NCBI GenBank assembly: GCA_001792345.1
Contig: MGGJ01000001.1
Location: forward strand, 48,486 to 112,485
From: Candidatus Woesebacteria bacterium RIFCSPHIGHO2_01_FULL_39_32
GTDB lineage: Bacteria; Patescibacteriota; Microgenomatia; UBA8517
DNA length: 64,000 bases
Reading direction: 5' to 3'
Below are positions 20,266 through 40,931 of this stretch, piece by piece. Every line of letters begins with the position of its first letter. Positions within the stretch are counted from its first letter, which is position 1. The position numbers and the translations under genes were made by a program. The notes under the pieces are model-generated. The model saw nothing but the letters and a program-made list of their open reading frames with translations. It was not told the origin of the DNA and did no database searches.

Positions 20266-21033
20266 ATGGTTTTCAAAAATATTTCATTACAATTACCGCT
20301 TCCAATACCAAGTTTCTTTCCAAAACTTGCTCATTCGTTTGAAAGACTTAATAATAGTATTCGTTCATCCACTCCAGTTCTCAAGGGATATATCTTTACA
20401 GTTTTTGCAAGCTTACGAGAGATGAGAGAAAAGCGGAGAGCATCGGTTGAGTCAAATGTCCAAGGTTTTCAGGAAGGAAAACCAAAGCTTCGAGTTAGAA
20501 AGTACATTAAGCCCCTTTTTATAATTGGGATATTAGCTATAGCATTTATTTTGGGTGTTAGAGCACTTAGTCGTAGAGGTAATGTGGCAGGGGATCAGAT
20601 CGAAATAGGCATTGCCGAGAAAACTTTGGATGTTAATAAAGAGTTTGCTTTTCCCCTGAAAGATTCTGAAGGAGAAAAAGTAGCGGAAATTAAATACATA
20701 GTAGAGAAAGCCGAGCTTAGAGACGAAATTATAGTAAAAGGGAAAAGAGCTACTGCAATCAAAGGAAGAACCTTTTTAATCTTTAATCTCAAGGTATCTA
20801 ATGAATTCACGCAATCCATAAACATTAATTCCAAAGATTACATCAGGCTATCTGTGAATGGAAACGAGGAAGTGTGGTTGGCGCCTGATATTCACAACGA
20901 TCCGGTTGAAGTTCAGGCAATCTCCACAAAATACACCCGAGTTGGTTTTCCGATAAACGATACCGATACAAATTATGTTATTAGAGTAGGAGAAATAAAG
21001 GGTGAGAAAGAAAAGATCCCGCTTTCCTTTTAG
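20266..21033 (+). CDS. Hypothetical membrane-anchored extracellular protein (beta-sandwich-like C-terminal domain)
   Basis: Probable true start at the ATG at 20422 (MREKRR..), followed by a TM helix; rest unassigned. Confidence 0.3.
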   Translation: MVFKNISLQLPLPIPSFFPKLAHSFERLNNSIRSSTPVLKGYIFTVFASLREMREKRRASVESNVQGFQEGKPKLRVRKYIKPLFIIGILAIAFILGVRALSRRGNVAGDQIEIGIAEKTLDVNKEFAFPLKDSEGEKVAEIKYIVEKAELRDEIIVKGKRATAIKGRTFLIFNLKVSNEFTQSININSKDYIRLSVNGNEEVWLAPDIHNDPVEVQAISTKYTRVGFPINDTDTNYVIRVGEIKGEKEKIPLSF

Positions 21034-21036
21034 CAA

Positions 21037-21210
21037 ATGACATCAACAAACCTCTCTAGACAAAAAATATCTCATTCAGTTGTTGAAGAGATAACCTCGG
21101 CACTGAAAAGCGTTAGGCATTTTGGTAGCGTAGAAATTTACATCCAAAAGGGAGTTGTAACTCAGATCACAGTCAGAAACATCAAAAAGACAAATAGTAA
21201 GATCAAATAG
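21037..21210 (+). CDS. Small YezD-like (DUF2292-like) protein, 57 aa; absent from the ORF track
   Basis: ATG 3 nt after the upstream stop; MTSTNLSRQKISHSVVEEITSALKSVRHFGSVEIYIQKGVVTQITVRNIKKTNSKIK; the FGSVEIxIQxGVVTQI core matches the remembered YezD pattern. Confidence 0.4.
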   Translation: MTSTNLSRQKISHSVVEEITSALKSVRHFGSVEIYIQKGVVTQITVRNIKKTNSKIK

Positions 21211-21331: not shown

Positions 21332-21360
21332 TTGACAAAGCTAAGTAAGATTGTTATATA
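21332..21360 (+). promoter_or_regulatory. Sigma-70-like promoter (TTGACA-17-TATATA with TGn extended -10)
   Basis: ttgacaAAGCTAAGTAAGATTGTtatata read directly; AT-rich UP-like region upstream. Confidence 0.5.
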
Positions 21361-21440: not shown

Positions 21441-21600
21441 TATTGAGAGCTGACCGCAAACGGAGGCTCTCCGGTTTGAACTTATCCGCCAGCTGGCGGA
21501 GTCGAATCGGGGCGCCTCCGTTTTCGTTTGAAAACGGGCGATTAAGGTGAAGTGCCTTTCTCGACAATAGTCGGGAGGACCATTAAAGAAAGGGGGTGAA
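21441..21600 (+). promoter_or_regulatory. GC-rich structured 5' leader (riboswitch/attenuator-like, unclassified) of the repeat-protein operon
   Basis: A 13-bp long-range helix (21455-21467 with 21514-21526) encloses a three-way junction (hairpin 21485-21500 CCGCC-AGCU-GGCGG; CUCCG/CGGGG helix). An alternative hairpin 21519-21536 (CGUUUUC-GUUU-GAAAACG) reuses the 3' strand of the long helix. SD GGGGGTG lies 10 nt before the ATG at 21609. Confidence 0.45.
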
Positions 21601-21608
21601 ATGAAAAT

Positions 21609-22859
21609 ATGACAGATTTACAGAAAAAATTTGCATCTGCTGTTGCGGCAGGGACGTTACTTCTGAACCTCGTTACCCCGGCTTTTGCTGGTTACACTTT
21701 TGAAGTATCCGGAAACGGATCCGACTCTGAAAGCGAAGTTAAATTCGAACAAAAGAATGAAGTCAAAGTTGATCAGCAAAACTGGGCTGAGGTTCTTAAC
21801 GATGTCAAAGTTAAAGCCAATACGGGCGACAACGAAGCCAATGATAATACCGGCGGCAAGGTAGAAATAGAAACTGGCGATTCTGAAACTAATGTTTCGG
21901 TTTCAAACGTTTTGAACTCTAATGTTGCAAAGGTAGACGCGTGTTGTGTCAAAAATGTCGAAGCTAAAATTTCCGGCAACGGTTCTGATTCTGAAAATGA
22001 AATCGAACTCGAACTGGAAAATGAAGTGAAACTAAATCAGTACAACAATGCTGTAGTTTTAAACTACGTTGAAACAAAGTCAGAGACTGGAGATAACGAG
22101 GCTGAAGACAACACCAACGGCGACGTATCTATCAAAACAGGCAATGCCAAAACGACCGTAGCTGTTTCAACCGCAGCTAACTCCAATTCTGCTTGGATTT
22201 CAGGTGGAAGCGGGGGCGGCGGCAGTCTTTCTGCGATAATTTCCGGCAACGGTTCTGATTCTGAAAATGAAATCGAACTCGAACTGGAAAATGAGGTTGA
22301 GCTCGATCAGCAAAACTGGGCTGCAATTCTCAATGACGTTGAGGTTGAATCCGAAACTGGAGACAACGAGGCAGAAGACAATACAGGCGGCGAGGTTGAG
22401 ATAGAGACAGGCGATGCCGAAGCCGATGTTACTGTTGACAATATGGTCAACTTTAACTGGGCAGATATTGATGCCTGTGGATGCATCGAAGATATTTTGG
22501 CCAAAATTTCAGGCAATGGTACAGACTCAGAAAATGAGATAGAGGCCGAGCTTGAAAGTGAGTTGGAAGTTGATCAGTACAACGACTTTGACTGTAAAGG
22601 CGAGTTTAAAGATGCATGTGCAGAAGTTGATGTTGAACTGGAAACTGGAGACAATGAAGCTGAGGACAACACACTTGGCGGAGATGATCCAGCCATTGAT
22701 ACTGGTGACGCCGATGCTGGAGTACATGTCAGCAATACCGGCAACTCTAACGTTTTTGGCGCAGCTCCCGAATTAGATTGGGAAATGCCATGGGGATTTG
22801 ATTTCAATTTCAACTTTTCGTTTGATTTGGAAGATCTCCTAGCAGCTCTTTTGGGCTAA
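21609..22859 (+). CDS. Secreted acidic repeat protein 1 (four ~90-aa SGNGSDSEN...TGDNEAEDNTGG..I.TGDA...CC repeats)
   Basis: Signal peptide ending AFA; 4 tandem repeats; Cys pairs; pI strongly acidic; no recognised family. Confidence 0.7.
   Translation: MTDLQKKFASAVAAGTLLLNLVTPAFAGYTFEVSGNGSDSESEVKFEQKNEVKVDQQNWAEVLNDVKVKANTGDNEANDNTGGKVEIETGDSETNVSVSNVLNSNVAKVDACCVKNVEAKISGNGSDSENEIELELENEVKLNQYNNAVVLNYVETKSETGDNEAEDNTNGDVSIKTGNAKTTVAVSTAANSNSAWISGGSGGGGSLSAIISGNGSDSENEIELELENEVELDQQNWAAILNDVEVESETGDNEAEDNTGGEVEIETGDAEADVTVDNMVNFNWADIDACGCIEDILAKISGNGTDSENEIEAELESELEVDQYNDFDCKGEFKDACAEVDVELETGDNEAEDNTLGGDDPAIDTGDADAGVHVSNTGNSNVFGAAPELDWEMPWGFDFNFNFSFDLEDLLAALLG
21968..22294 (+). repeat. 57-nt perfect intragenic direct repeat (21968-22024 and 22238-22294) inside repeat protein 1
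   Basis: Identical DNA aatttccggcaacggttctgattctgaaaatgaaatcgaactcgaactggaaaatga at both positions. Confidence 0.8.
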
Positions 22860-22949
22860 GCCAACCTAAGGGAAACGGGCTGGTCTGCTAGCACTTCGGC
22901 GGACCACCCGGAACCCAAAGGAAAAGATAAAAGTTATTACATATAAAAA

Positions 22950-25259
22950 ATGTCTGCCCTAGTAAAAGAATTTGAAGAAATCGAAATACGATTAATAAAT
23001 GAGTCAATATATAGTGGTTTTTTTGACAGAATATTAAACCAAGCAAAAACAATTCTTGAAAAGGTGAAAAATAGATTAAATATAATGAACAATAAAGTAA
23101 ATAAAGCAAAAAATTTTGTAGCAGTTTTAATGGTCGTATTGGTTTTATTTGTATATAATCAATACTCTTTCGTTTTAGCACAAACTGCTCCTGAACCACC
23201 TGCTCCACCATCTGCTCCCGAGGCACCGTCTGCACCCTCTGCTCCCGAATCCCCATCTGACAACAATTGGGAAAGTGAAAATCAGGGCGGTGGGGATGAG
23301 GAAAACCATCGTAGATATAGAGACGACGACGAGGAAGACGAAAATGAAAACACTCAGTCCGAAACCACGAACCATCCAAGTCCTACTACAGAGAGTAGTG
23401 GAAATGAAGATGGTAGCGGTAATGTTGGAGATACCCAAATAACTACTGGTGATGCAGTAAATGATGCAGGAATTACAACTTCAGCAAACGAGAATTATTC
23501 AGGAAGTTCTTTACTTCCACAAAATAGTGGAGGTGGAGCTTCGGTATCAAATAAAGATAACGGATCCGGCTCGACTAATTCTGGGTCGGTGAGTTTAACA
23601 AACGACGATACTACTCAACAAACCAATAGCACAGTTGTTGGAAATAATCTTTGGCAGGAAACTGAAACAGGGGACAATTCGGCCTCAAGGAATGTTGGAA
23701 ACTCCACGATAAATACAGGCGATGCAAATACAACAGGGACAATAATTACTTCGGTTAATACAAACATAGATGGTTTGCTAGTAAATGAATTTAATGTCGC
23801 CGATGATCATGTAGGAGACATTATTTTAGATTTCGGGAGTTGTATTTTTGGATGCGCTCCTGGTGATTTAACGGCGCAAAATTCTGGGAATGGTACGGGA
23901 TCAAATAACCAGGCAGAGATTGATTCAAACGTTGATAGTTTTACTTTTCAAAATAATGACGCGGTTGTTGAAAATAATATGACTCTTTCTTCTGATTCAG
24001 GACATAATGACGCTGATAGAAATACCGGCGGAGATTCAGAAATTGTAACTGGAGATGCAAATGTATCTGCAAACGCTTTAACATTTGCCAACAATAATAT
24101 TTCCGGCAACGTAATCTACTCGGTAGTAAATATATTTGGAAAATTAATTGGCGACATCCTACTACCGGAAGGATTTTGCTGTTTCAATACAGTTTCTGCA
24201 GAAAATTCTGGAAATGGTTCTGAATCGCTAAACATTGCAGATATTAATCTAACAAACACCGATTTAACTTACCAATTTAATGCAGCCGATATTCAGAATA
24301 ACCTTATTTTATATGCGAACACAGGAGAAAACGATACAAGTAAAAATACAGGTGGTACATCCTCTATAAAAACAGGTTCGGCGAGCGCAAAAGCACAGGT
24401 TGTTAATGTTGCCAATACCAATATTGATGGTGGGGATTGGTGGTTAGTTATTGTAAACGAAGCAGGTAATTGGGTAGGTAAAATTATCGGAGCACCGCTG
24501 GGTTCATTATTTGGCGGGTCCGAAGGTTTTGTATTTGGAGTTTCTGATTCTGGTGAAATAACAGCGACCAATTCAGGTAATGGTTCAGATTCCCAGAACA
24601 CTTCTGGAGTTAGTCAGCAGACTTCAAATACTACGATTCAAAATAACGATGCCACCATTGTTAATAACCTTGATCTTTCTGCAAATACGGGAGCAAACTC
24701 TGCTAGTAGAAATACCGGTGGGGATTCCACAATAAAAACCGGCGATGCCAATATAATCGCAAACTTAGTTAATTTTGTAAATAATAACATTGTGGGAACA
24801 GGTAAACTTTTTGTAACCGTCGTAAACGTATTCGGAAGTTGGTTAGGTGATTTTGTTGGTCCTGGTATGGTAAAAGAGAATGATAATAATAGCCAGCAAG
24901 CGTTGGGTGGTCCAGCGCCTTCTCAAGAAAGTAGTGTAGGCGGCAACGGTAATAGTCAGAGTAAAAGCAGTACGGTGGCAAATGTATCTTTAACACAAAA
25001 TCCACTGCCATCTAGTTCGACACCAGATTCATCGGAGAATTACATTCTTGGGATCTTGAATACTTCAGATGTTGGAGTTTCAGGAGGAGAGGGAGAAGGA
25101 GAAATTGCGGTGGTAGCCGGAACAAATACTCTCAGTCAGGACTCAACTCAGGGTAAAAAGGTTGTTAAAATCAATCTTGCCTGGTTATTGTTCGGAATAC
25201 CAATGGTTGCTTTATACCTAATTCGACGCAAAAGGCTTAATGCTGATCACACTGCCTAA
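22950..25259 (+). CDS. Secreted/anchored repeat protein 2 (paralogue with NSGNGS...NTGGDS.IKTGDAN... repeats, C-terminal TM anchor)
   Basis: Alternative start at 23085 (MNNKV.. then a hydrophobic signal); Pro-rich APEPPAPPSAPE stalk; ≥4 repeats; C-terminal hydrophobic helix plus RRKR. Confidence 0.65.
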   Translation: MSALVKEFEEIEIRLINESIYSGFFDRILNQAKTILEKVKNRLNIMNNKVNKAKNFVAVLMVVLVLFVYNQYSFVLAQTAPEPPAPPSAPEAPSAPSAPESPSDNNWESENQGGGDEENHRRYRDDDEEDENENTQSETTNHPSPTTESSGNEDGSGNVGDTQITTGDAVNDAGITTSANENYSGSSLLPQNSGGGASVSNKDNGSGSTNSGSVSLTNDDTTQQTNSTVVGNNLWQETETGDNSASRNVGNSTINTGDANTTGTIITSVNTNIDGLLVNEFNVADDHVGDIILDFGSCIFGCAPGDLTAQNSGNGTGSNNQAEIDSNVDSFTFQNNDAVVENNMTLSSDSGHNDADRNTGGDSEIVTGDANVSANALTFANNNISGNVIYSVVNIFGKLIGDILLPEGFCCFNTVSAENSGNGSESLNIADINLTNTDLTYQFNAADIQNNLILYANTGENDTSKNTGGTSSIKTGSASAKAQVVNVANTNIDGGDWWLVIVNEAGNWVGKIIGAPLGSLFGGSEGFVFGVSDSGEITATNSGNGSDSQNTSGVSQQTSNTTIQNNDATIVNNLDLSANTGANSASRNTGGDSTIKTGDANIIANLVNFVNNNIVGTGKLFVTVVNVFGSWLGDFVGPGMVKENDNNSQQALGGPAPSQESSVGGNGNSQSKSSTVANVSLTQNPLPSSSTPDSSENYILGILNTSDVGVSGGEGEGEIAVVAGTNTLSQDSTQGKKVVKINLAWLLFGIPMVALYLIRRKRLNADHTA

Positions 25260-25267
25260 ATTGATGA

Positions 25268-26452
25268 ATGACCAAGTTTAAGGCAGAAATTAAAAACAGA
25301 TTCTTCTTTTTAATAAGCTTGCTGTCTATTTTGACCTATCTTTTTTTACCGACAGTACAAGCTGATGAATTAGTGATTACAGATAATGGTTCCGGTTCTA
25401 CTAACGAAGTTCAAGTTCAATCCGAAAGTCAAACAAATATTAACCAAAACAATGAGAGCAATGTTACAAATGAAGTCAATACCTCTGTAAATACCGGCGA
25501 TAATTCTGCGTCTGGCAATACAAATGGGGATGTTGCTATTACAACTGGTGATAGTAACACTCAGATTACTATAGAAAATACCGCAAACACATCTACAGTT
25601 GAGACTCGATGTTGTACTTCTGGGACCACTGCACAAATTTCTGGCAATGGCGCTAATTCAACCAATCAGATTAATACTTCTTCTACTTCAACAACAAATA
25701 TCATAGTTTATCAGAATGCTACCATTACTAATAATATTACTGGATACGTAAATACTGGTAATAATAGCGCCGATGACAATGCTGGTGGGAATGTAGAAAT
25801 AACAACAGGGAACATAAAGGTTCAAGGAAATATTATAAACGGCCCAATAAACTATTCTAATATTGAAACCGCTTTCGGCCTTGCTAGTTTTGTGTCTAAG
25901 ATTTCAGATAATGGTACGAATTCTGAAAACAAAATAAATGTAAATTTTGATTACCAAAGAAACATTAACACCAATTTTAACGCGGATTTAGATAATTACG
26001 TTACATGGGACCTAAATACCGGAGGTAATTCTGCAGATGGAAATACTGAGGGTGATGTGACTATAAATACGGGAGATATATCGCTTGACTTCTTTATTAA
26101 AAATTTTGTAAATCTTGGAAAAGTAGAAGTATCTTGTTGTCCTACTAAAAAAGAGAAAGAGGAGGAAAAACCACCCCCCGGAGTACCACCATATGAAGAA
26201 GAAAAGGAAAATGGTGGGGTGAGTGGTGGAGTTGGTGGAGGCGGTGGCGGTGGTGGTGGCGGGGGAGGAGGTCAAATACTACCAGAAGCTGCAGCGGTAG
26301 AAGCGGGAGGACCAGGAATCGATGGATTATCTGTTACTTCCGGTAGTGGATTTCAATCTCTATTATTCTTCATCGGTCTTGCTATGGTCACATTTGGTGG
26401 TAAAATTGCTACCAATGAACTTTTCCAAAATACTTCAGAAAGGAAAAAGTAA
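25268..26452 (+). CDS. Secreted repeat protein 3 (paralogue; poly-Gly tract; LPEAA/LSVTSG segment, TM and basic tail at C-terminus)
   Basis: Signal peptide ..TVQA; repeats ISGNGANS...NTGNNSADDNAGGNVEITTGN; CC pairs; a 20-residue Gly tract; C-terminal hydrophobic helix plus ERKK. Confidence 0.65.
   Translation: MTKFKAEIKNRFFFLISLLSILTYLFLPTVQADELVITDNGSGSTNEVQVQSESQTNINQNNESNVTNEVNTSVNTGDNSASGNTNGDVAITTGDSNTQITIENTANTSTVETRCCTSGTTAQISGNGANSTNQINTSSTSTTNIIVYQNATITNNITGYVNTGNNSADDNAGGNVEITTGNIKVQGNIINGPINYSNIETAFGLASFVSKISDNGTNSENKINVNFDYQRNINTNFNADLDNYVTWDLNTGGNSADGNTEGDVTINTGDISLDFFIKNFVNLGKVEVSCCPTKKEKEEEKPPPGVPPYEEEKENGGVSGGVGGGGGGGGGGGGGQILPEAAAVEAGGPGIDGLSVTSGSGFQSLLFFIGLAMVTFGGKIATNELFQNTSERKK
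26211..26272 (+). repeat. GGN-codon homopolymeric Gly tract (low-complexity DNA, slippage-prone)
   Basis: ggtggaggcggtggcggtggtggtggcgggggaggagg encodes GGGGGGGGGGGGGG. Confidence 0.7.
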
Positions 26453-27011
26453 GTCTAAAAAGGATAAAACATCTCCATTAAGACTCGCACTTGGATTAAC
26501 CTTGGTTTTGATCGGTCTAGTTATTATTTTAGGAAGAGACAATCTTCCTACTATATATAGTACAAGTTTTGAGAGCGAACCGGTTAAAATAGAAGGTTTA
26601 TCGTTTAGTGAATTAAAAGAAGAGAAAATACCAAAACGGATAGTGATTCCTCAAATTTTTACCGATCTGGAAGTAAAAAAGTCAAATATAGTTGGAGGTT
26701 ACTGGGAAGTTTTTGAGGACACGGCGGGATGGGGAATTGGATCTGGTATACCTGGGGAAAAAGGCAATCAAGTAATATTTGCACACGCGAAAGAGGGTCT
26801 TTTTTTACCACTTCGATCAATTAAAGTAGGCAGTCAAATTTATGTCCTTACCGATTCTGACTGGTATAAATATGAAATTAAAGAAATAAAAGAAGTTTAT
26901 CCTAATCAGGTAGAGGTAATTGCTCCGACAGAAGACGAGACTTTGACGCTGTACACCTGCTCTGGTTTTGCCGATACAAAACGCCTTATAGTCGTTGCAA
27001 AACCTTCTTGA
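26415..27011 (+). CDS. Sortase-family transpeptidase
   Basis: TM anchor; VIFAHAKEG (catalytic His region); TLYTCSGF (TLxTC catalytic Cys motif); ORF-track start at 26322 overlaps the upstream gene, so the ATG at 26415 is preferred. Confidence 0.65.
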   Translation: MNFSKILQKGKSKSKKDKTSPLRLALGLTLVLIGLVIILGRDNLPTIYSTSFESEPVKIEGLSFSELKEEKIPKRIVIPQIFTDLEVKKSNIVGGYWEVFEDTAGWGIGSGIPGEKGNQVIFAHAKEGLFLPLRSIKVGSQIYVLTDSDWYKYEIKEIKEVYPNQVEVIAPTEDETLTLYTCSGFADTKRLIVVAKPS

Positions 27012-27055: not shown

Positions 27056-28036
27056 ATGGATTTTGCTTTTGAGCTGCGTCATTATTTTTTTCCAGGACAT
27101 TCGAATAATCATAAAGCTAAGATTCTTCATTCGACCAGCCTTTTATTAATTGCATTGTTTCTAATTACATATCAGGTAATTTTAGGGGTTTTCCCCCTAA
27201 CTGGAGTAAAAATCTTGGGTTATGCGGCAAACATACCACCAGACACGATTATTTCTTTAACAAATCAAAAACGCGTAGAAGCTGGAGTGCCGGCCTTAAT
27301 TAACAGTGCCCAACTTTCTCAAGCTGCACAATTAAAGGGACAACATATGATAGCACTAGACTATTGGGCGCATGTTGCTCCGGATGGAACCGAACCTTGG
27401 AAGTTTTTCAGCGACGTTGGTTATAAATATCGCTACGCTGGTGAAAATTTGGCTCGAGATTTTTCTAACCCGCAAGATGCTATAAACGCCTGGATATCTT
27501 CGCCCTCTCATAAAGATAATATGCTCTCTACTAAATATAAAGAAATCGGTGTAGCTGTAGTGGAAGGAGATTTGGGTGGTGTTGACACAACAATAATTGT
27601 TCAACTTTTTGGAACACAGTTAACAGATACTGCTCCAGAGCTTCCTATTGCTGAAGCAAAACCTGTAGTTACTGTGGTTCCTTCTCCGACCCAAGCACAA
27701 AAACCTACTTTAACTCCAACCCTTACATTAACACCAACATTAATACCGGTAATTGTTCAAACTTCCCCGGCGCTTCAACCCGGAAATATAAATCCGGAAG
27801 GTGTTCCAGCACGGCAGAGTGCAAATACCTTTCAAATTTTGATATCCCCATTTGAAAGTACTCGGGGGGTTGCTATTACTACGACTTTACTACTATTAAT
27901 AGTAATGACAGTTGATGGGTTAATTGTTGCAAGAAGGAAAATTCCAAGACTTTCCGGAAGAACATTCGCTCATATAGCGTTTTTGGGAATGATATTAGCA
28001 ATACTTTTAATAGCAAAAGCTGGAAAGATACTATAA
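27056..28036 (+). CDS. CAP/SCP (PR-1-like, YkwD-type) domain protein with Pro/Thr linker and C-terminal TM anchor
   Basis: GENLARDF..AWISSPSHKDNML..YKEIGVAVV matches the CAP domain; PTLTPTLTLTP linker; C-terminal TM. Confidence 0.6.
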   Translation: MDFAFELRHYFFPGHSNNHKAKILHSTSLLLIALFLITYQVILGVFPLTGVKILGYAANIPPDTIISLTNQKRVEAGVPALINSAQLSQAAQLKGQHMIALDYWAHVAPDGTEPWKFFSDVGYKYRYAGENLARDFSNPQDAINAWISSPSHKDNMLSTKYKEIGVAVVEGDLGGVDTTIIVQLFGTQLTDTAPELPIAEAKPVVTVVPSPTQAQKPTLTPTLTLTPTLIPVIVQTSPALQPGNINPEGVPARQSANTFQILISPFESTRGVAITTTLLLLIVMTVDGLIVARRKIPRLSGRTFAHIAFLGMILAILLIAKAGKIL

Positions 28037-30369: not shown

Positions 30370-31824
30370 ATGGATGCAAATCTTCTTTCTGAGTTCAAGG
30401 AGATAGAAAAGGGTATTTGGGAACTTCAGAAAAGTTTTAAAAAGAAGATGCGCGCTCCACTCCGTATTGTTGCAACAGAGAAATTACTTTCCGATATGGA
30501 TGACGGAGCCGTTGAACAGGGCATAAATGTTGCGAGTTTGCCGGGAATAGTAGGATCTTCCTGGATGATGCCCGATGCCCATTGGGGTTATGGCTTTCCC
30601 ATTGGCGGAGTTGCAGCGTTTGATCTTAAAGAAGGCATAATATCGCCCGGCGGAATTGGTTTTGACATCAATTGCGGAATGAGACTCCTAACGACAAATC
30701 TTACTGAGAAGGAAGTAAGACCGAGAATTGAGCAAATTATTAATGATCTTTTTGATGTAATTCCGGTGGGCGTCGGAGGAGCGGGAAGTGTAAGGCTTTC
30801 TAAAAAGGAATTCAAAGAAGTTATAGTCAAAGGCGCAGCTTGGGCGGTTGAGAATGGTCTAGGTCGGCAGGAAGACTTAAGGCAGATTGAGGAGGGAGGT
30901 TTTATAAAGGATGCAGACCCGTCTGCAGTAAGTGATCGTGCAATTACCCGTGGTATTAATCAACTGGGTACATTGGGGTCGGGCAACCACTATCTTGAAG
31001 TCCAGAAAGTTGAAACTATATTTGATGAAAAAATTTCTCAAGAGTTGGGAATTTTAGAGTCCGGACAAATTGCAGTAATGATTCATTGCGGTAGTCGTGG
31101 TTTTGGACACCAGATTGGTACAGATTACCTAAATTCTTTTGAGCCTGCGATGAAAAAATATAAAATTGAAGTACCCGATAGACAACTTGCGTGTATGCCA
31201 ATTAGTTCTCCCGAAGGGAAAAAGTATTTTTCTGCAATGGCCTGTGCTGCAAATAACGCATTCGCAAATCGACAAATCATTGCTCATAAAGTGAGAGAAG
31301 TTTTCGCTCACATTTTCGGCAGATCTTCCGAGGATTTAGAAATGGATTTGGTTTACGACGTTGCCCACAATATAGCTAAGATAGAGAAACACTCAATAAA
31401 CAATAAGCGGAGCTTGGCCGACGAAGTCGGTAAACAAAAAACAATAAAGGAAGTAATGGTGCATAGAAAGGGGGCGACGAGGGCATTCCCTGGCCAACCC
31501 GTTATTTTGGGTGGATCTATGGAAACTGGCTCGTATCTTTTGATGGGAACAGAAGGGGCAATGCAAAAAACTTTTGGTTCCACCGCTCATGGGTCGGGTA
31601 GGACGATGAGTAGAACTAGGGCAAAACAAATAGTCCGAGGTGAGGAACTTCAGAAAAAAATGAAGAAACGCGGAATTTACGTAAAAACTGCATCATTTTC
31701 AGGATTAGCAGAAGAAGCGGGATTTGCATACAAAGATATCAATGAAGTGGTAACAGCTCTCTCAACTGCCGACATTTCTCAATCAATAGCTTCTTTTAAA
31801 CCTCTGGGAAATATAAAAGGTTAA
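30370..31824 (+). CDS. rtcB: RNA-splicing ligase RtcB
   Basis: 484 aa; GSGNHY, HCGSRGFGHQ and TAHGSGR motifs of the RtcB family. Confidence 0.85.
   Translation: MDANLLSEFKEIEKGIWELQKSFKKKMRAPLRIVATEKLLSDMDDGAVEQGINVASLPGIVGSSWMMPDAHWGYGFPIGGVAAFDLKEGIISPGGIGFDINCGMRLLTTNLTEKEVRPRIEQIINDLFDVIPVGVGGAGSVRLSKKEFKEVIVKGAAWAVENGLGRQEDLRQIEEGGFIKDADPSAVSDRAITRGINQLGTLGSGNHYLEVQKVETIFDEKISQELGILESGQIAVMIHCGSRGFGHQIGTDYLNSFEPAMKKYKIEVPDRQLACMPISSPEGKKYFSAMACAANNAFANRQIIAHKVREVFAHIFGRSSEDLEMDLVYDVAHNIAKIEKHSINNKRSLADEVGKQKTIKEVMVHRKGATRAFPGQPVILGGSMETGSYLLMGTEGAMQKTFGSTAHGSGRTMSRTRAKQIVRGEELQKKMKKRGIYVKTASFSGLAEEAGFAYKDINEVVTALSTADISQSIASFKPLGNIKG
31784..31820 (+). repeat. 37-bp direct repeat copy 1 (last 12 codons of rtcB)
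   Basis: caatagcttcttttaaacctctgggaaatataaaagg; matches 32580-32616 at 36 of 37 positions. Confidence 0.85.
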
Positions 31825-31884: not shown

Positions 31885-32136
31885 ATGAAAGTATTAACTG
31901 TTGGCGAATTTAAATCTAAGTTTTCTGAAGTAATAAATCAGCTTCTAATAGGTAAGGAAGTTGGAGTTACCTATGGCAAGAGTAAAAAACCTATTGGAGT
32001 TTTTGTACCTTATAAATCATATAAAAAGAAAAATAAAATAAAATTGGGATTACTGAAGGGTAAAGCTTCTTTTAAGATAAAAAAAGGGTTTAAAATGACT
32101 ATAGATGAGTTCTTGAATTTGAAAGACACAACTTAA
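31885..32136 (+). CDS. Type II antitoxin (Phd/YefM-like)
   Basis: 83 aa; N-terminal MKVLTVGEFKSKFSEVINQL resembles Phd/YefM; precedes a PIN toxin. Confidence 0.5.
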   Translation: MKVLTVGEFKSKFSEVINQLLIGKEVGVTYGKSKKPIGVFVPYKSYKKKNKIKLGLLKGKASFKIKKGFKMTIDEFLNLKDTT

Positions 32137-32161: not shown

Positions 32162-32560
32162 ATGAATTATCTCCTTGATACCCATGTTTTATTGTGGAGT
32201 GTTATTAGCCCAACTAAACTTTCAGAGAGGGTGAGAGAAATTCTCTTTAGTGCGGAGGGAACTAAATTTGTAAGCGCTTTGTCTTTATGGGAAATTTCTT
32301 TGAAGTATTCAATTGGTAAGTTAGAGTTAAAACCAGTAAGCCCGTTAGAGTTTTTGGGTTATATTAAGAAATCTGGATTTAAAACACTATCATTAACTTC
32401 TGAAACAGCCTCCTCTTTTTATAATTTACAAATACTGAAAAATAGAGACCCTTTTGATTTAATGTTAGCGTGGCAAGTAATTCGTGGAGGTTATATTCTC
32501 TTGTCAAAAGATAAGGGATTTGATGATTATCAAAAAGACGGCTTGAAAAGAATTTGGTAA
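32162..32560 (+). CDS. vapC: PIN-domain toxin (VapC-like)
   Basis: LLDTHVLLW start (first acidic Asp); later acidic residues consistent with PIN; 132 aa. Confidence 0.6.
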   Translation: MNYLLDTHVLLWSVISPTKLSERVREILFSAEGTKFVSALSLWEISLKYSIGKLELKPVSPLEFLGYIKKSGFKTLSLTSETASSFYNLQILKNRDPFDLMLAWQVIRGGYILLSKDKGFDDYQKDGLKRIW

Positions 32561-32579: not shown

Positions 32580-32616
32580 CAATTGCTTCTTTTAAACCTC
32601 TGGGAAATATAAAAGG
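32580..32616 (+). repeat. 37-bp direct repeat copy 2
   Basis: caattgcttcttttaaacctctgggaaatataaaagg followed by tga; encodes the same ..SFKPLGNIKG* as the rtcB end. Confidence 0.85.
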
Positions 32617-36224: not shown

Positions 36225-39200
36225 ATGCCCAAACTAGATGTAGTTATACCTGCTCATAACGAATCCGATAATATTATTGAATTATTGGTAAGGCTCGAAA
36301 GAGCGCTATTTAATGCTGGAATAAAATACAACATTTTTGTTGTTGATAATCGCTCTTCTGACGGAACTGATGAAAGGGTAAAAGAATACATAAATAGTTC
36401 GAATTCTTCGTCGATAAAACTCTTGTACAAAAAAGATAAACAGGGAAAGGCATATGCAATTCTGGAAGGTACACATTACGGTAAAGCGCCCTATATAGCC
36501 ATGATTGATGGAGATCTTCAGTATCCCCCGGAAGTGTTACCTGAGATGTTTAAACTTGTTAAAAAATTTGGGGTCGTTGTGGCAAACAGAAAAAAGAATG
36601 GTGCTGGATTTTTAAGAAAAATAGGCACCAGGCTTAACAGATACATCTTCGAGAAAAAACTTTTGGGTTTGAATTGTGATACGCAATCAGGCCTGAAGGT
36701 TTTTAAGCGAGAGATTATACGTTATTTACATGAGGCTGATGTAAAACCATGGTCTATAGATATGCCTCTCTTGGTTACCGCTAGGCGCCTTGGCTACAAA
36801 ATTGCAACCGTCGATATCGAATTTGCCAAGAGAAAATCAGGTTTATCAAAGGTTAGTTTTCTAAAAACAGGTTTTCAGATAGCGACAACTGCAATCTCAC
36901 TAAAACTTTCAGAAAAAAAACCATTTAAAGTATTACCCAAAAACGAACGTTCACCAATCGGAGCTGGGGTAGTTTACAAAGGTCGAAGGTTTACTACCCA
37001 CACAAACCTTCCATTCTCGGAGACTGCTTTGAAGACCCTTAATATTCGTCAGAAATTATTACTGGGTGCAGTAGTTTTACTACTAACTGCTGGTCTTTTT
37101 ATAAACGCGAAGGGTACCGTGATTATACTCATAGCACTTCTATCCGCACTGTATTTTTTGGATTTTATTTTTACAACTTTTATTCTTCTTAGGAGTTTGT
37201 CTAAGAATATCGAAATTAAATTTTCGAAAAAGTCATTGGGACAGTTAAATGACAAAAGTCTTCCCAAATACAGCATTTTGTGTCCGCTTTACAAAGAGGC
37301 TAACGTATTACCTGACTTTGTAAAAGCAATAAATAATTTAGACTGGCCAAAGGATAAGCTTGACGTTATTTTGCTCCTTGAAGAAAACGATAAAGAAACA
37401 CAAAAGGCTGCGGAAAACCTTTCCGATCAGAGTCATTTTAGAGTACTCGTGGTACCCCATTCTCTTCCTAAGACTAAACCTAAAGCTTGCAATTACGGTT
37501 TAGCGTTTGCAAAGGGAGAATATGTAGTTGTCTATGATGCAGAGGATAGACCCGATCCGATGCAACTGAAAAAAGCATACATTGGTTTTAAAAGATCCGC
37601 CTCAAAAGTCGTTTGTCTACAATCAAAACTGAATTACTACAATCCGGATCAAAATTTTTTAACAAAGCTTTTTACAGCAGAATATTCATTATGGTTTGAT
37701 TTGATCTTACCTGGACTTCAGTCGGTGAAAACCATAATCCCGCTTGGTGGGACAAGCAATCATTTTAAACTTTTCGTTTTAAGAGATTTAGGAGGTTGGG
37801 ACGCTTTTAATGTTACAGAGGATTGTGAATTGGGGACGCGCCTTTTTAGAAAGGGTTTTACAACGGCAATAATTGATTCTACGACTTATGAAGAAGCAAA
37901 TAGCAAGGTCAAAAGTTGGTTAAAACAACGTTCACGTTGGATTAAAGGGTATCTGCAAACTTATTTCGTTCACACAAGACATCCTCTTAGTTTTGTTGTT
38001 GATCATGGGGTCCAGGCATTTATATTCCAACTAGTTATTGGAATGCGGATGATCTTCATCATGATAAACCCCATTCTTTGGCTAGTTACTATTTCTTATT
38101 TTATGTTTAGGCCGACTCTTGGGTTAACAATTGAATCTTTATATCCAACACCAATTTTTTATATGGCGGTTTTTCCTATGATCTTTGGGAATTTTCTTTA
38201 CCTTTATAACTACATGATAGCCTTAGCAAAAAGAGAAAAGTGGTACCTAATAAAATACGTTTATTTAGTTCCTTTTTACTGGGTAATGGTGAGTTTTGCG
38301 TCATTTATCGCACTCTATCAGTTGATTGTTAAACCTCACTATTGGGAAAAGACAGAACATGGGTTTCATCTTGCACCAAAGAAAAAAGAATCTAAGTCAC
38401 CAGGGCTTGCTATTTCCTTATCTATTCCTTCCCTGCAAGAATCTTTTTTTGATTCGGTAAGAAATTTACTGAAGAAGGAAAACTTTGCTTTGGGAGCAAT
38501 TTTACTAATTATTTCTTCCGGTTTAGTAAATTTTATTGACTTTCTTTATAACGCGTATCTGGGAAGAAAATTAGAAATTGTGGAGTTTGGAAACGTAGCA
38601 CTCCTTGGAAATTTCATAACAATTGCTGGAATTTTAACAAGCGCCCTAATGAGAGTTACAACCCATAAGGCAAGTTACTTCTTTGGGAAACATAACGCTC
38701 CGGCCAAGGAATTTTGGAGAAGAATTAAGAAGTGGGTTTGGTTCGGATCTTTGGCAGCAACGTTTGTCTGGGTTATTTCTATCCCGTCATTAGGAAATTA
38801 TTTTAATATCGGTGGCTTAATGCAGTTTGTTCTCTTCACTCCGTTTTGGACAGTTGGTTTTCTGGCCGGACTAAATATAGGCTTTTTAGGAGGAAACTTT
38901 AAATTTAGTGTGATTGCATTAATTTCATTTGTTGAAGTACTTACAAAATTACTTATTGCTGTAGTTACAGTAGAAATGGGATATCCCTCACTCGTTTATA
39001 TTTCTTTACCAATCTCAGTAGTTATTGCGTTTTTCATTAGTTACATCGTCATTTCCAGGATGCAGGATGCGAAGGATTACAAAGATAAAGAAAGCGACCT
39101 AACTTTCCCGCGCGGATTTTTCCTTGCATCCTTACTAACCAATGTGTCGATAGTTGCCTTTTTATCAATCGATGTTGTACTTGCAAAACATTATCTTTCT

Positions 39201-40931
39201 CCCGTCGAGGCCGGGAATTATGCGCTTTTATCTTTGTCAGGGAAAATCATTTATTTTTTGGGCGGTCTTTTTATTCAGTTTGTAAATCCTCTTATTAGTA
39301 GACAGGAAGGTCAAGGAAGAGTATCCCGTAGAACTTTTTACCTTTTATTTATCAGTTCTTCGACTGTTAGCTTAATGGGTTATGTGGGAATTGGACTATT
39401 CGGTAAGGTAACGATGCCTCTACTTTTTGGAGATAAAGCTAATGCAATTCTTCCTATTCTGCCGTTATATGGACTTGGTATTGCCGCATATTCTATAGCT
39501 AGCTTTTTTACCATCTACCATCAAGTCAGAAAACACTATATTTTCTCGGTACTTGCAATTCTAGTTTCGGCTGCACAGATATTTTATATCGCTCTATTCC
39601 ATTCTTCTACCGAAATGATTGCTATGGTTACAACATTGACGGGAATAGGATTTCTAATCTACTCAATTATTCTTCACCTGTCATATAAGCAGTTAACTAG
39701 CATCTCGAATAACATTTTGGACTTCTTTGATCTCTTCGGTCCATCAGCTCCTATATCTTCGGATAAAATTAAAATCCTCATTTTCAACTGGAGGGACGTA
39801 AAACATGTTTGGGCCGGAGGGTCAGAAATTTATATTCACGAGATTGCAAAGCGTTGGGTCAGAAAAGGTCATCAGGTAACTCTATTTTGTGGAAATGACG
39901 GTAAAAACAAAAGAGAAGAAAAAGTTGCGGGAGTTAAAGTAATTAGAAGGGGTGGATTTTATACAGTCTATTTATGGGCTTTTTTATACTATATTTTTCG
40001 GTTTAGAAAAAAGTTTGGTGTAGTAATCGATTGTGAGAATGGGATACCCTTTTTCACTCCTTTATATGTGAAGGAACCGCATGTTTTATTAATGCATCAT
40101 GTACACAAAGATATTATTTTGAAGGAAATGAAACTTCCAAAATTGCTTCTTCCGGTCGCTTTTGTGACAAAGAAGCTTGAGGAAGTACTGATGCCAGTAT
40201 TGTATAGAAAGTCAAGGATTATAGCTGTTTCTAAATCTACGAAAGATGACTTAGAAAAAATTGGTTTGGGAACAAAGGAAAAAATATCCGTCGTAAACCC
40301 TGGTGTCGAATTGGAGAAATTCAAAGTTGGGAAGAAAACTGCCTACCCCTCAATCCTTTATTTGGGAAGATTAAAGCAATACAAGTCTATCGACACTATT
40401 ATTAAGGCAATGCCTACGGTTTTAGCCAAACATCCAAGTGCAATTCTACATATTGCAGGTTTTGGCGAAGCGTATAGATACTTAGAAAAGTTGGCACGAA
40501 AACTATTACCCGATAAAAGTTTCATGTTTTGGGGAAAAGTAAGCGATGGAGTTAGGGCAAAACTTATGAGTTCTTCCTGGGTATTTGTTTACCCTTCGAC
40601 AATGGAAGGTTGGGGAATTTCTGTAATTGAAGCAAATGCTTGCGGGACTCCTGTTGTGGCCTCAAATGTTCCGGGATTGCGTGACTCTGTAAAAAATCCA
40701 TCAAGCGGGTTTCTAGTTGCTCCGAAAAATAGCGACGAATTTGCAGAAAAAATAAATCTGATTCTCTCGGATATAAGGTTAAGGACTACTTTATCAAAAG
40801 AAAGTCTTAAATGGGCAACTGGATTCACTTGGGACAAAAGCGCCGAGGAATTTATGAAAGTTTTAATTGATACCATAGCTATTGGAGAGGGTTATTCGTT
40901 GATGCCGAATGCCAGTTTATCAAAACAGTGA
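36225..40931 (+). CDS. 1568-aa multidomain glycan-synthesis protein: GT2 (DPM1-like) - TM - GT2 (processive, QxxRW) - MOP/Wzx-like flippase - GT4
   Basis: aa 1-230: VVIPAHNESDNI, DGD (DxD); aa 340-600: DAEDRPD, TED, QRSRW (nt ~37926) flanked by TM helices; aa ~730-1130: >10 TM helices with AGNYALLSLSGK (Wzx G.Y motif); aa ~1150-1568: GT4 with EGWGISVIEANACGTPVVAS; continuous ORF, no internal stop. Confidence 0.7.
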   Translation: MPKLDVVIPAHNESDNIIELLVRLERALFNAGIKYNIFVVDNRSSDGTDERVKEYINSSNSSSIKLLYKKDKQGKAYAILEGTHYGKAPYIAMIDGDLQYPPEVLPEMFKLVKKFGVVVANRKKNGAGFLRKIGTRLNRYIFEKKLLGLNCDTQSGLKVFKREIIRYLHEADVKPWSIDMPLLVTARRLGYKIATVDIEFAKRKSGLSKVSFLKTGFQIATTAISLKLSEKKPFKVLPKNERSPIGAGVVYKGRRFTTHTNLPFSETALKTLNIRQKLLLGAVVLLLTAGLFINAKGTVIILIALLSALYFLDFIFTTFILLRSLSKNIEIKFSKKSLGQLNDKSLPKYSILCPLYKEANVLPDFVKAINNLDWPKDKLDVILLLEENDKETQKAAENLSDQSHFRVLVVPHSLPKTKPKACNYGLAFAKGEYVVVYDAEDRPDPMQLKKAYIGFKRSASKVVCLQSKLNYYNPDQNFLTKLFTAEYSLWFDLILPGLQSVKTIIPLGGTSNHFKLFVLRDLGGWDAFNVTEDCELGTRLFRKGFTTAIIDSTTYEEANSKVKSWLKQRSRWIKGYLQTYFVHTRHPLSFVVDHGVQAFIFQLVIGMRMIFIMINPILWLVTISYFMFRPTLGLTIESLYPTPIFYMAVFPMIFGNFLYLYNYMIALAKREKWYLIKYVYLVPFYWVMVSFASFIALYQLIVKPHYWEKTEHGFHLAPKKKESKSPGLAISLSIPSLQESFFDSVRNLLKKENFALGAILLIISSGLVNFIDFLYNAYLGRKLEIVEFGNVALLGNFITIAGILTSALMRVTTHKASYFFGKHNAPAKEFWRRIKKWVWFGSLAATFVWVISIPSLGNYFNIGGLMQFVLFTPFWTVGFLAGLNIGFLGGNFKFSVIALISFVEVLTKLLIAVVTVEMGYPSLVYISLPISVVIAFFISYIVISRMQDAKDYKDKESDLTFPRGFFLASLLTNVSIVAFLSIDVVLAKHYLSPVEAGNYALLSLSGKIIYFLGGLFIQFVNPLISRQEGQGRVSRRTFYLLFISSSTVSLMGYVGIGLFGKVTMPLLFGDKANAILPILPLYGLGIAAYSIASFFTIYHQVRKHYIFSVLAILVSAAQIFYIALFHSSTEMIAMVTTLTGIGFLIYSIILHLSYKQLTSISNNILDFFDLFGPSAPISSDKIKILIFNWRDVKHVWAGGSEIYIHEIAKRWVRKGHQVTLFCGNDGKNKREEKVAGVKVIRRGGFYTVYLWAFLYYIFRFRKKFGVVIDCENGIPFFTPLYVKEPHVLLMHHVHKDIILKEMKLPKLLLPVAFVTKKLEEVLMPVLYRKSRIIAVSKSTKDDLEKIGLGTKEKISVVNPGVELEKFKVGKKTAYPSILYLGRLKQYKSIDTIIKAMPTVLAKHPSAILHIAGFGEAYRYLEKLARKLLPDKSFMFWGKVSDGVRAKLMSSSWVFVYPSTMEGWGISVIEANACGTPVVASNVPGLRDSVKNPSSGFLVAPKNSDEFAEKINLILSDIRLRTTLSKESLKWATGFTWDKSAEEFMKVLIDTIAIGEGYSLMPNASLSKQ

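What the first reader, a model, noticed from the sequence alone, without database searches (positions are those of the whole stretch)
21609..26452. Novel ~90-aa acidic repeat module with terminal Cys pairs, undergoing recent intragenic duplication
Four modules occur in protein 1 and at least four in protein 2, with degenerate copies in protein 3. A 57-nt stretch is duplicated perfectly at DNA level (21968-22024 and 22238-22294). This implies very recent unit duplication, so module number probably varies between strains, as is typical of phase- or antigen-variable surface proteins. The Cys pairs (ACCV, ACGC, CCFN, RCCT, SCCP) at module boundaries suggest extracytoplasmic disulfide staples.
Basis: seen in the sequence. 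Interest (0 to 1): 0.7.

Follow-up and report, generated by a model that had tools for sequence, protein, structure and literature searches.

The report
Sortase-linked beta-solenoid surface protein family
Three adjacent genes of a Microgenomates (CPR) bacterium encode secreted proteins built from an undescribed ~88-residue beta-solenoid module, in a sortase-linked surface operon whose module numbers are fixed across the lineage; the perfect 57-nt repeat is a local gene-conversion patch, not evidence of variable copy number.

Summary

In 80 species-level genomes spanning Microgenomates, P1 has 4 modules in 79. The gene order 255-aa TM protein, DUF2292, P1, P2, P3, sortase is conserved. Each module position keeps its own signature, and the Cys pairs sit at fixed junctions.

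The two closest relatives lack the 57-nt tract. Twenty of 79 orthologues carry their own in-register exact tracts of 40 nt or more between varying module pairs. That is recurrent intragenic gene conversion at constant copy number, not recent duplication or phase/antigenic variation.

Best reading: a lineage-wide surface assembly. P3 is wall-anchored (LPXTG-like signal plus adjacent sortase), P2 is membrane-tethered (conserved INLAW-TM-basic tail), and acidic P1 is the unanchored partner, possibly disulfide-linked.

In passing: a covarying, Rfam-absent 5' leader hairpin precedes P1 in most of the related loci.

The parts
20266..21033 (+). Conserved upstream gene: 255-aa ORF (the real start is probably the internal Met in 'MREKRR') with one TM helix and a beta-rich extracytoplasmic domain. 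No Pfam match.
   Evidence: A homologue lies on the same strand within 1.5 kb upstream of P1 in 77 related loci. No family hit.
21037..21210 (+). Small DUF2292 (YezD-like) gene, 57 aa. A conserved neighbour.
   Evidence: Pfam PF10055, E 1e-7. Present upstream of P1 on the same strand in 66 loci, and called in L001, L083 and L084.
21332..21360 (+). Sigma-70-like promoter candidate: TTGACA, 17 nt, TATATA.
   Evidence: Read from the sequence; 10/12 match. In 44% of related loci a match of at least 10/12 ends 15-45 nt upstream of the leader core, against 1% of random windows. Inferred, not shown.
21446..21527 (+). Conserved 5' leader RNA element. An invariant single-stranded core GCUGACCGCAAAC is followed by a long hairpin (ACGGAGGC...GCCUCCGU) and a U-run. 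It looks like a terminator or attenuator.
   Evidence: The 17-mer core, with up to 2 mismatches, occurs 77 times in 66 loci; 75 of these lie upstream of a P1- or P4-type gene. Covariation: 86.9% of cells paired vs 71.7% in shuffles, and 183 double-change cells vs 52 (0/500). The covariance model scores 65.9 bits here, E 1e-15, with plus-strand scores far above minus-strand scores. No Rfam match.
21609..22859 (+). P1: secreted, acidic protein with no recognisable anchor. Signal peptide aa 1-27; four modules; conserved C-terminal tail FNFNFSFDLxDLLxxL.
   Evidence: 671 homologues, all unnamed or 'hypothetical' apart from one evidently mislabelled record. The AF2 model is all-beta with pLDDT 78.6.
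21690..21953 (+). P1 module 1, ending in the ACC(V) Cys pair.
   Evidence: A Cys pair sits at junction 1|2 in 75/76 orthologues.
21954..22223 (+). P1 module 2, ending in a Gly-rich linker (GGSGGGGS) without Cys.
22224..22490 (+). P1 module 3, ending in NFNWADIDACGC (C290 and C292 are invariant).
22491..22769 (+). P1 module 4, with a Cys-pair loop insertion. The low-confidence tail follows at 22770-22856.
21968..22024 (+). Copy 1 of the 57-nt exact tract (5' end of module 2). This is the recipient of the gene conversion.
22238..22294 (+). Copy 2 of the 57-nt exact tract (5' end of module 3). This is the probable donor.
   Evidence: Relatives have NEIELELE at module 3 but NDIDLELE or NDIDLDLD at module 2.
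22865..22921 (+). Stable GC-rich hairpin between P1 and P2, with no U-tail.
   Evidence: MFE -31.3 kcal/mol, z -4.5. Weak sequence conservation in 6 loci. Its role is inferred: a partial terminator or a 3' stabiliser.
22950..25259 (+). P2: 769-aa ORF (alternative start Met46 at 23085). It has an N-terminal hydrophobic segment, a Pro-rich and acidic region, one degenerate module (~23289-23495) and four strong modules (23535-23783, 23865-24116, 24189-24440, 24555-24806). Each strong module is followed by a ~25-40 aa hydrophobic insert. The Cys pairs are CIFGC and CC.
25170..25259 (+). P2 C-terminal anchor: INLAW motif, hydrophobic helix, RRKR tail.
   Evidence: An NLAW-like motif lies in the last 90 aa of 63/72 P2 orthologues. 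No NCBIfam sorting-domain model matches.
25268..26452 (+). P3: signal peptide, then three modules (25367-25612, 25622-25873, 25886-26134) with CC after modules 1 and 3, then a Pro/Glu/Gly-rich stalk and a C-terminal sorting signal.
26327..26449 (+). P3 sorting signal: L-S-V-T-S-G (26327-26344), a hydrophobic segment, then a K...ERKK tail. LPEAA lies just upstream at 26279-26293.
   Evidence: P3 orthologues carry LPATG, LPVTG, LPITG, LPRTG or L[SA]xT[SG] followed by a TM segment and a basic tail. LPXTG-anchor HMM hits in orthologues are sub-threshold.
26322..27011 (+). Sortase (probable start Met32 at 26415), with an N-terminal TM segment and a TLYTC catalytic motif.
   Evidence: Pfam PF04203, E 7e-23. 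It falls below the cut-offs of every NCBIfam sortase class. It lies downstream of P1 on the same strand in 47 of the 52 loci with a sortase hit.
27056..28036 (+). CAP/YkwD-domain protein with a C-terminal TM segment. It is a neighbour only in close relatives.
   Evidence: Pfam PF00188, E 1e-15. Same position in L084. A hit in only 11 loci.

Best explanation
This is a lineage-wide surface-structure operon of Microgenomates (CPR/Patescibacteria), probably from a Woesebacteria-like genome. It is built from paralogous proteins that share one ~88-residue beta-solenoid module. Shown: the module family exists, it has no described relatives, the predicted fold is all-beta and solenoid-like, module numbers are fixed, the gene order is conserved, signal peptides and C-terminal anchors are present, Cys pairs sit at fixed junctions, and conversion tracts recur. 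Inferred mechanism: P3 is exported and attached to the cell wall by the adjacent sortase, through its LPXTG-like signal and a Pro/Gly-rich stalk. P2 stays tethered to the membrane by its INLAW-TM-basic tail. The highly acidic, anchorless four-module P1 is produced from its own promoter and leader; in many relatives so is a small, near-neutral (median pI 7.8) two-module paralogue, P4. These anchorless proteins dock onto the anchored paralogues through like-with-like contacts between solenoid modules, forming a fibre or coat. The conserved Cys pairs at every second module junction provide disulfide staples or cross-links. This logic resembles long anchored versus short secreted chaplins, or CsgB versus CsgA. 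The 57-nt perfect repeat is a recent, lineage-specific gene-conversion tract (module 3 copied onto the start of module 2). It is one instance of ongoing concerted evolution among modules that leaves copy number unchanged.
Confidence: 0.55

Rival explanations
1. The three proteins are independent, monomeric beta-helical adhesins. Each binds a host-cell or substrate ligand for the episymbiotic lifestyle, and they do not co-assemble. P1 would be released or loosely attached.
Against: The sequence, charge and module number are highly conserved across class-level divergence, and P1 is more conserved than the sortase. That is unusual for host-specific adhesins. The same module occurs in anchored and unanchored paralogues kept together in one operon, and Cys pairs are fixed in every paralogue. 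Both point to a common assembly.
Confidence: 0.2
2. P1 is the S-layer or sheath protein, forming a two-dimensional lattice. P2 and P3 are its membrane and wall anchors.
For: P1 is secreted, about 40 kDa, acidic (pI ~4) and anchorless, with its own promoter-like site and a long structured 5' leader. From general knowledge, S-layer genes typically have such leaders.
Against: From general knowledge, S-layer proteins usually lack Cys and are not rod-like solenoids. No SLH or other known S-layer anchoring domain was found. No abundance data are available.
Confidence: 0.12
3. One reading: a phase- or antigen-variable surface protein whose module number changes between strains through recent unit duplication.
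For: A perfect 57-nt intragenic repeat exists, and recombination between modules clearly occurs.
Against: P1 has 4 modules in 79/80 species, and all close relatives are 412-431 aa. Modules have position-specific identities. The tract covers only about a fifth of a unit. No simple-sequence repeat lies in P1. Conservation is high.
Confidence: 0.03
4. The modules are cation-binding (RTX-like) or ice- or mineral-binding beta-solenoids. Their main role would be binding Ca2+ or a surface rather than building a structure.
Against: No Pfam RTX (HemolysinCabind) or other match even at E<=1. The P2 and P3 modules are not acidic. The sortase and anchor context is unexplained by this model.
Confidence: 0.05

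Closest known systems
Streptomyces chaplins (long ChpA-C with a sortase LAXTG anchor; short secreted ChpD-H)
   Same: One domain is shared by sortase-anchored and anchorless secreted paralogues. There is a conserved Cys pair. The proposed logic is that anchored copies hold or nucleate a surface assembly of secreted copies. The window's P3 motif L-S-V-T-S-G resembles LAXTG.
   Different: No sequence relationship: no DUF320 or other Pfam hit. Chaplin domains are ~40 aa and hydrophobic, whereas these modules are ~88 aa, polar or acidic, and predicted to be solenoids. The phylum differs. The genes here form one operon with the sortase.
Curli CsgA/CsgB and other functional-amyloid beta-solenoids (FapC)
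   Different: hhalign of the module profile against E. coli CsgA gives probability 0.2%, and there is no Curlin_rpt Pfam hit. The repeat unit is 88 aa with five non-identical rungs rather than 22-aa rungs. It is a monoderm, sortase-based system with no CsgG/E/F. Cys pairs are present. The Foldseek matches are not significant.
Beta-helical adhesins (autotransporter passenger UpaB; Bacteroides 'putative adhesin' DUF4097-type structures such as 3ljy)
   Different: High rmsd (7-12 A) and 8-13% identity. Secretion and anchoring differ: Sec plus sortase, with no beta-barrel translocator.
Sortase-dependent Gram-positive pili (SpaA-type pilins)
   Same: Co-encoded sortase, an LPXTG-like substrate, and several paralogous secreted proteins in one operon. 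One relative (L001) carries a SpaA-type cluster right next to this one.
   Different: P1 and P2 lack LPXTG. There is no pilin-type Ig (CnaB/SpaA) domain. The predicted fold is a solenoid. The sortase falls below the cut-offs of all curated classes.

Membership tests
LPXTG-type sortase substrate (applies to P3) | C-terminal pentapeptide LPXTG or LAXTG-like motif | tested here: met
   The window's P3 has L-S-V-T-S-G, a variant. Orthologues have LPATG, LPVTG, LPITG, LPRTG or L[SA]xT[SG] at the same place.
LPXTG-type sortase substrate (applies to P3) | Hydrophobic segment followed by a positively charged tail directly after the motif | tested here: met
   FQSLLFFIGLAMVTFGG followed by K...ERKK. 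The same layout occurs in 50+ orthologues.
LPXTG-type sortase substrate (applies to P3) | Match to the curated anchor model (TIGR01167 or related) above its cut-off | tested here: not met
   No hit for the window's P3. Orthologues score 13.2 bits (cut-off 15.9) and up to 31 bits on NF053819 (cut-off 47).
LPXTG-type sortase substrate (applies to P3) | Cognate sortase encoded nearby, and cleavage demonstrated | tested here: inconclusive
   The sortase gene overlaps the P3 stop codon (PF04203, E 7e-23) and is syntenic in 47 loci. Cleavage cannot be tested with these tools.
Curlin repeat / CsgA family | Sequence membership (PF07012 or a profile match to CsgA) | tested here: not met
   No Pfam hit at E<=1. 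hhalign probability 0.2%.
Curlin repeat / CsgA family | Beta-solenoid fold of stacked strand-turn-strand rungs | tested here: inconclusive
Chaplins | Chaplin domain (DUF320) | tested here: not met
   No Pfam hit in P1-P3.
Chaplins | The same domain in sortase-anchored long forms and anchorless secreted forms | tested here: met
   P3 is anchored. P1, and P4 in relatives, are anchorless. All share the module. This is a functional analogy only.
Phase- or antigen-variable repeat surface proteins | Repeat copy number differs between closely related strains or species | tested here: not met
   4 modules in 79/80 genomes. Relatives at 67-82% identity are 412-431 aa.
Phase- or antigen-variable repeat surface proteins | Near-identical tandem units, or a simple-sequence or invertible switch | tested here: not met
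   Units 2 and 3 are 66% identical at the nt level apart from the 57-nt patch. TRF finds no array in P1.
RTX beta-roll | GGxGxDxUx nonapeptide repeats (Pfam HemolysinCabind) | tested here: not met
SpaA-type sortase-assembled pilins | CnaB/SpaA Ig-like domains, plus LPXTG on every polymerised subunit | tested here: not met
   No such domains. P1 and P2 have no LPXTG. The model is all-beta and solenoid-like.
Extracytoplasmic disulfide-stapled protein | Cys pairs conserved and located outside the cytoplasm | tested here: met
   Fixed Cys-pair positions in P1, P2, P3 and P4 orthologues. Signal peptides are present.
Extracytoplasmic disulfide-stapled protein | Disulfides actually form, and the partner Cys residues are identified | not testable with these tools
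No DsbA/MdbA-like gene was seen in the window. MdbA-like and VKOR families are reported as common in CPR (PMC6744442).

The most novel reading that the evidence does not exclude
Microgenomates carry a monoderm counterpart of curli or chaplins. A sortase-anchored paralogue (P3) and a membrane-tethered paralogue (P2) nucleate polymerisation of a secreted, acidic four-module beta-solenoid subunit (P1), together with a small near-neutral partner (P4, median pI 7.8). The result would be a disulfide-cross-linked fibre or coat that defines the cell surface of this CPR lineage. Production of the subunits would be gated by a previously undescribed leader RNA attenuator found almost only upstream of the anchorless subunit genes (75 of 77 copies of its 17-mer core in the loci searched).
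Probability: 0.25. Interest if true: 0.7.

Novelty: new member of a known kind. Interest (0 to 1): 0.45.

Why it matters
Almost nothing is known experimentally about the cell envelope of Microgenomates. Sortase is reported to be near-ubiquitous there, but its substrates are unnamed (PMC6744442). This locus supplies a concrete, lineage-wide candidate: a defined set of paralogous beta-solenoid proteins with fixed stoichiometric architecture, anchors, conserved Cys pairs and a dedicated leader RNA. The set is small enough to express, to model as complexes, and to look for in cryo-ET and metaproteomes. It would also provide a domain model for about 3300 currently unannotated protein clusters, a possible new C-terminal anchor motif (INLAW) and a new cis-regulatory RNA family. 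It is also a clean natural example of concerted evolution among intragenic repeats under a strict copy-number constraint.

Tried and rejected
- Pfam and NCBIfam scans of P1-P3 at E<=1 gave only noise.
- The PDB sequence search gave nothing at E<=10.
- Foldseek against PDB gave no significant hit.
Cys-Cys distances and rung geometry therefore could not be measured.
- hhalign of the module against E. coli CsgA (sequence from memory) gave no relationship.
- The search for a sub-repeat within the module gave only weak signals at 2, ~8 and ~17.8 residues. The five-rung reading remains an inference.
- The search for a DsbA/MdbA-like CxxC protein in the window found none, but this was a crude screen.
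- Rfam at gathering threshold over the whole window, and at E<=1 around the locus, found nothing.
- Three literature searches found no description of this family.
- I considered the leader hairpin as merely the terminator of the upstream DUF2292 gene and rejected it. A promoter-like site lies between them; the 5' flank is nearly invariant across the related loci; and the element also precedes P4 genes on the other strand.
- Assembly artefact was rejected: the units are only 66% identical and the architecture recurs in more than 80 assemblies.
Full report
**1. What is in the sequence**

Three consecutive plus-strand ORFs fill the flagged interval: P1 21609-22859 (416 aa), P2 22950-25259 (769 aa) and P3 25268-26452 (394 aa). 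The next ORF, which overlaps the P3 stop, is a sortase (PF04203, E 7e-23). After it comes a CAP/YkwD-domain protein.

An HMM seeded on the P1 units recovers four modules in P1 (E 1e-38 to 1e-49). A family HMM finds four strong modules plus one degenerate copy in P2, and three clear modules in P3. No other ORF in the window carries a module.

The module consensus is ISGNGxxSxN-(~13)-QxNxAxxxNxVxxxxNTGDNxAxxNTGGxVxIxTGDAxxxVxVxNxxNxN, followed by a variable junction.

The 57-nt repeat (21968-22024 = 22238-22294) is exact and is the longest exact direct repeat in the 64 kb. Given the shared peptide, identical codon choice by chance has P about 6e-8. Over the whole unit, modules 2 and 3 are only 66% identical at the nucleotide level.

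P3's copies are not degenerate. The Cys pairs follow alternate modules rather than every module.

**2. Is the module known?**

There is no Pfam or NCBIfam hit at E<=1 and no PDB sequence hit at E<=10.

A search of 5.8 billion proteins gave 671 homologues of P1. None of the 120 listed has a Pfam domain. Where named, all but one are 'hypothetical protein', from Woese-, Gottesman- and Amesbacteria and other Microgenomates or Patescibacteria. The one exception is an evidently wrong SNF2-helicase label.

A profile of the eleven window modules finds 3283 cluster representatives (E<=1e-3) among 1.84 billion. Three literature searches found nothing on the family. Meheust et al. 2019 note only that sortase is near-ubiquitous in Microgenomates, and that most Microgenomates-enriched families are hypothetical, many of them membrane-localised.

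**3. Fold**

AlphaFold2 with a 42-sequence alignment gives mean pLDDT 78.6 and pTM 0.65. The model is all-beta, with low confidence only in the signal peptide and the last 30 residues.

Foldseek finds nothing significant. Its best hits are FapC and a CsgA. hhalign of the module against E. coli CsgA is negative.

I conclude that the fold class is a beta-solenoid, with no close solved relative. Hydrophobicity shows periods of about 2, 8 and 17.8 residues. This is compatible with five non-identical rungs per module, but that reading is an inference.

**4. Comparative anatomy**

A genome-collection scan returned 80 species-level loci. They come from Gottesman-, Levy-, Woese-, Chisholm-, Curtiss-, Roizman-, Davies- and Amesbacteria.

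- P1 has four modules in 79 of the 80 loci and five in one.
- P2 has four or five modules (~700-800 aa).
- P3 has three modules, or one in Gottesmanbacteria-type loci.
- 29 loci add P4, a ~200-aa two-module secreted paralogue with median pI 7.8. It sits on the opposite strand after the sortase. P4 is absent from this window.

Each P1 module position has its own conserved ending:

| Module | Conserved ending |
|---|---|
| 1 | VDCC |
| 2 | Gly-rich linker |
| 3 | NFNWADxDCGC |
| 4 | Loop insertion, then the tail FNFNFSFDLxDLLxxL |

The gene order is conserved: 255-aa TM protein, DUF2292, P1, P2, P3, sortase. The 255-aa protein is found in 77 loci and the DUF2292 gene in 66. The sortase lies downstream of P1 in 47 of the 52 loci with a sortase hit.

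P1 is more conserved (median 48% identity to the window protein) than the sortase (30%).

**5. Anchors**

P3 orthologues end in one of two signals. Some have LPATG, LPVTG, LPITG or LPRTG. Others have L[SA]xT[SG], which is the window's type (LSVTSG). In both cases a hydrophobic segment and a basic tail follow, and a Pro/Gly/Thr-rich stalk precedes. Curated LPXTG-anchor models score just below their cut-offs.

P2 orthologues end in a conserved K-x-[IV]-N-L-A-W motif running straight into a hydrophobic helix and a basic tail. This is seen in 63 of 72. The three-part layout is that of a sorting signal, but no model matches it.

P1 has no anchor.

**6. Cys pairs**

In 75 of 76 P1 orthologues a Cys pair (CC, CxC or CxxC) sits at junction 1|2 and another at junction 3|4. 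None sits at junction 2|3.

P3 has pairs after modules 1 and 3. P4 has one after module 1. P2 has them after its first two strong modules.

The basic unit therefore looks like [module-CysCys-module]. An extracytoplasmic disulfide role is plausible. An MdbA-like oxidoreductase and VKOR are reported as common in CPR. No such gene is evident in this window, and the partner Cys residues cannot be assigned.

**7. The 57-nt tract**

In the two closest relatives with DNA available, the same 66 nt of modules 2 and 3 are less alike than in the window:

| Sequence | Protein identity to window P1 | Module 2 vs module 3, identical nt of 66 |
|---|---|---|
| Window | - | 61 |
| L083 | 82% | 49 |
| L084 | 75% | 42 |

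In those relatives module 2 reads NDIDLELE or NDIDLDLD and module 3 reads NEIELELE. In the window both read NEIELELE. Module 3 was therefore copied onto module 2.

Across 79 orthologues, 20 carry exact intragenic repeats of 40 nt or more (maximum 78). Wherever listed, these are at corresponding positions of two modules, and the pairs vary (1-3, 2-3, 1-2, 2-4).

Within-protein identity between different module positions is 0.49-0.60. This exceeds between-species identity for different positions (0.39-0.44).

This is concerted evolution by gene conversion at constant copy number. It is not unit duplication, and nothing suggests phase or antigenic variation.

**8. Mechanism**

*Shown.* This is a conserved, sortase-linked set of secreted paralogues. 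They share a solenoid-class module, have distinct anchoring modes, and have fixed module numbers and Cys positions.

*Inferred.* P3 is wall-anchored by the sortase. P2 is membrane-tethered. Acidic P1, and P4 where present, are the anchorless partners that associate with the anchored ones through module-module contacts, possibly fixed by disulfides, to form a fibre or coat. The logic resembles long versus short chaplins, or CsgB versus CsgA.

Supporting hints are P1's own promoter-like site and a dedicated leader shared only with P4 genes. There is also a stable hairpin after P1 that could raise P1 transcript levels relative to P2 and P3.

Rival readings are monomeric adhesins, an S-layer, and cation binding. 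These cannot be excluded without multimer modelling or experiments.

**9. Side finding: a conserved leader RNA**

The region upstream of P1 contains a conserved RNA element at window 21446-21527. It has an almost invariant GCUGACCGCAAAC followed by a long hairpin (ACGGAGGC...GCCUCCGU) and a U-run.

- The 17-mer core occurs in 66 of 80 loci. Of 77 copies, 75 lie upstream of P1- or P4-type genes.
- The stem covaries strongly: 86.9% paired vs 71.7% in shuffles, 183 vs 52 double-change cells, 0/500. Slid controls score 0.11-0.23 against 0.55.
- G-U pairs, and much higher plus-strand covariance-model scores, show it acts as sense-strand RNA.
- Promoter-like sites end 15-45 nt upstream of it in 44% of loci, against 1% of random windows.
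- Rfam has no match.

It looks like a 5'-proximal attenuator or stabiliser specific to the anchorless subunit genes.

**10. Verdict**

'Novel extracytoplasmic Cys-paired repeat module' is supported. 'Recent duplication, variable copy number, phase or antigen variation' is refuted.

The locus is a new, uncharacterised family within a known kind: sortase-associated beta-solenoid surface proteins. It is of moderate interest as the likely main sortase-linked surface system of Microgenomates, with a more interesting, untested polymer-plus-riboregulator reading.

Noticed in passing
window 21446-21527 (+), with conserved downstream motifs AAAACGG (~21533) and GAAGTGC (~21548): A conserved 5' leader RNA: a nearly invariant GCUGACCGCAAAC, a covarying long hairpin, then a U-run. 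It precedes P1 in 66 of the 80 related loci by its 17-mer core (more with the covariance model) and also precedes some P4 paralogue genes. It is absent from Rfam. It is a candidate attenuator or mRNA stabiliser. The invariant CCG-NNNN-CGG could form a mini-hairpin or a protein-binding site.
   Followed up: partly
window 22865-22921 (+): A stable GC-rich hairpin (z -4.5) in the P1-P2 spacer, without a U-tail. It is weakly conserved in six loci. It may set the P1:P2 transcript ratio.
   Followed up: partly
window 25170-25259 (P2 C-terminus); P2 orthologues in L003-L082: A conserved K-x-[IV]-N-L-A-W motif runs directly into a TM helix and a basic tail in 63/72 P2 orthologues. The layout is that of a sorting signal, but no NCBIfam sorting-domain model matches it.
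   Followed up: partly
e.g. L020 13094-13711 (-), L011 11755-12354 (-), L027 2845-3453 (+): A fourth paralogue, P4: ~200 aa, two modules joined by CxC or CCC, secreted, with median pI 7.8 and a Lys-rich second module. It is encoded divergently after the sortase in 29 loci, and some copies carry the same leader RNA. It is absent from this window.
   Followed up: partly
window 20266-21033 and 21037-21210 (+): A 255-aa single-TM protein with no family match and a 57-aa DUF2292 protein are conserved immediately upstream of P1, in 77 and 66 loci respectively. They may belong to the same system.
   Followed up: partly
window 49612-50253 and 50265-50834 (+): A second sortase (PF04203, E 4e-22), directly preceded by a 213-aa secreted protein with LAATG in its C-terminal region. 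This is an independent substrate-sortase pair with no module.
   Followed up: partly
window 31789-31820 and 32585-32616: A 32-nt exact direct repeat. One copy is in the 3' end of an RtcB-like gene (30370-31824). The other follows a small antitoxin-like ORF (31885-32136) and a PIN/VapC-like ORF (32162-32560). This looks like the footprint of an inserted toxin-antitoxin cassette. Gene identities were judged by eye only.
   Followed up: no
window 36225-40931 (+): A 1568-aa fusion of several glycosyltransferase domains (GT2 twice, GT4/GT1). It sits within a long run of sugar-nucleotide and glycosyltransferase genes, likely a cell-surface glycan locus.
   Followed up: no
L001 1-4788 (+): In a Gottesmanbacteria relative, a >1840-aa SpaA-domain protein with its own sortase lies immediately upstream of the P1 cluster. 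Two different sortase systems sit side by side.
   Followed up: no
record titles of L003-L005, L007, L014 and others: Many MAG records that carry this Microgenomates-type operon are titled 'uncultured Gammaproteobacteria' or 'Pseudomonadales'. These are evidently placeholder or wrong taxonomic labels. One P1 homologue (P0119) is named 'SNF2 domain/helicase... protein' by NCBI, which is also evidently wrong.
   Followed up: no
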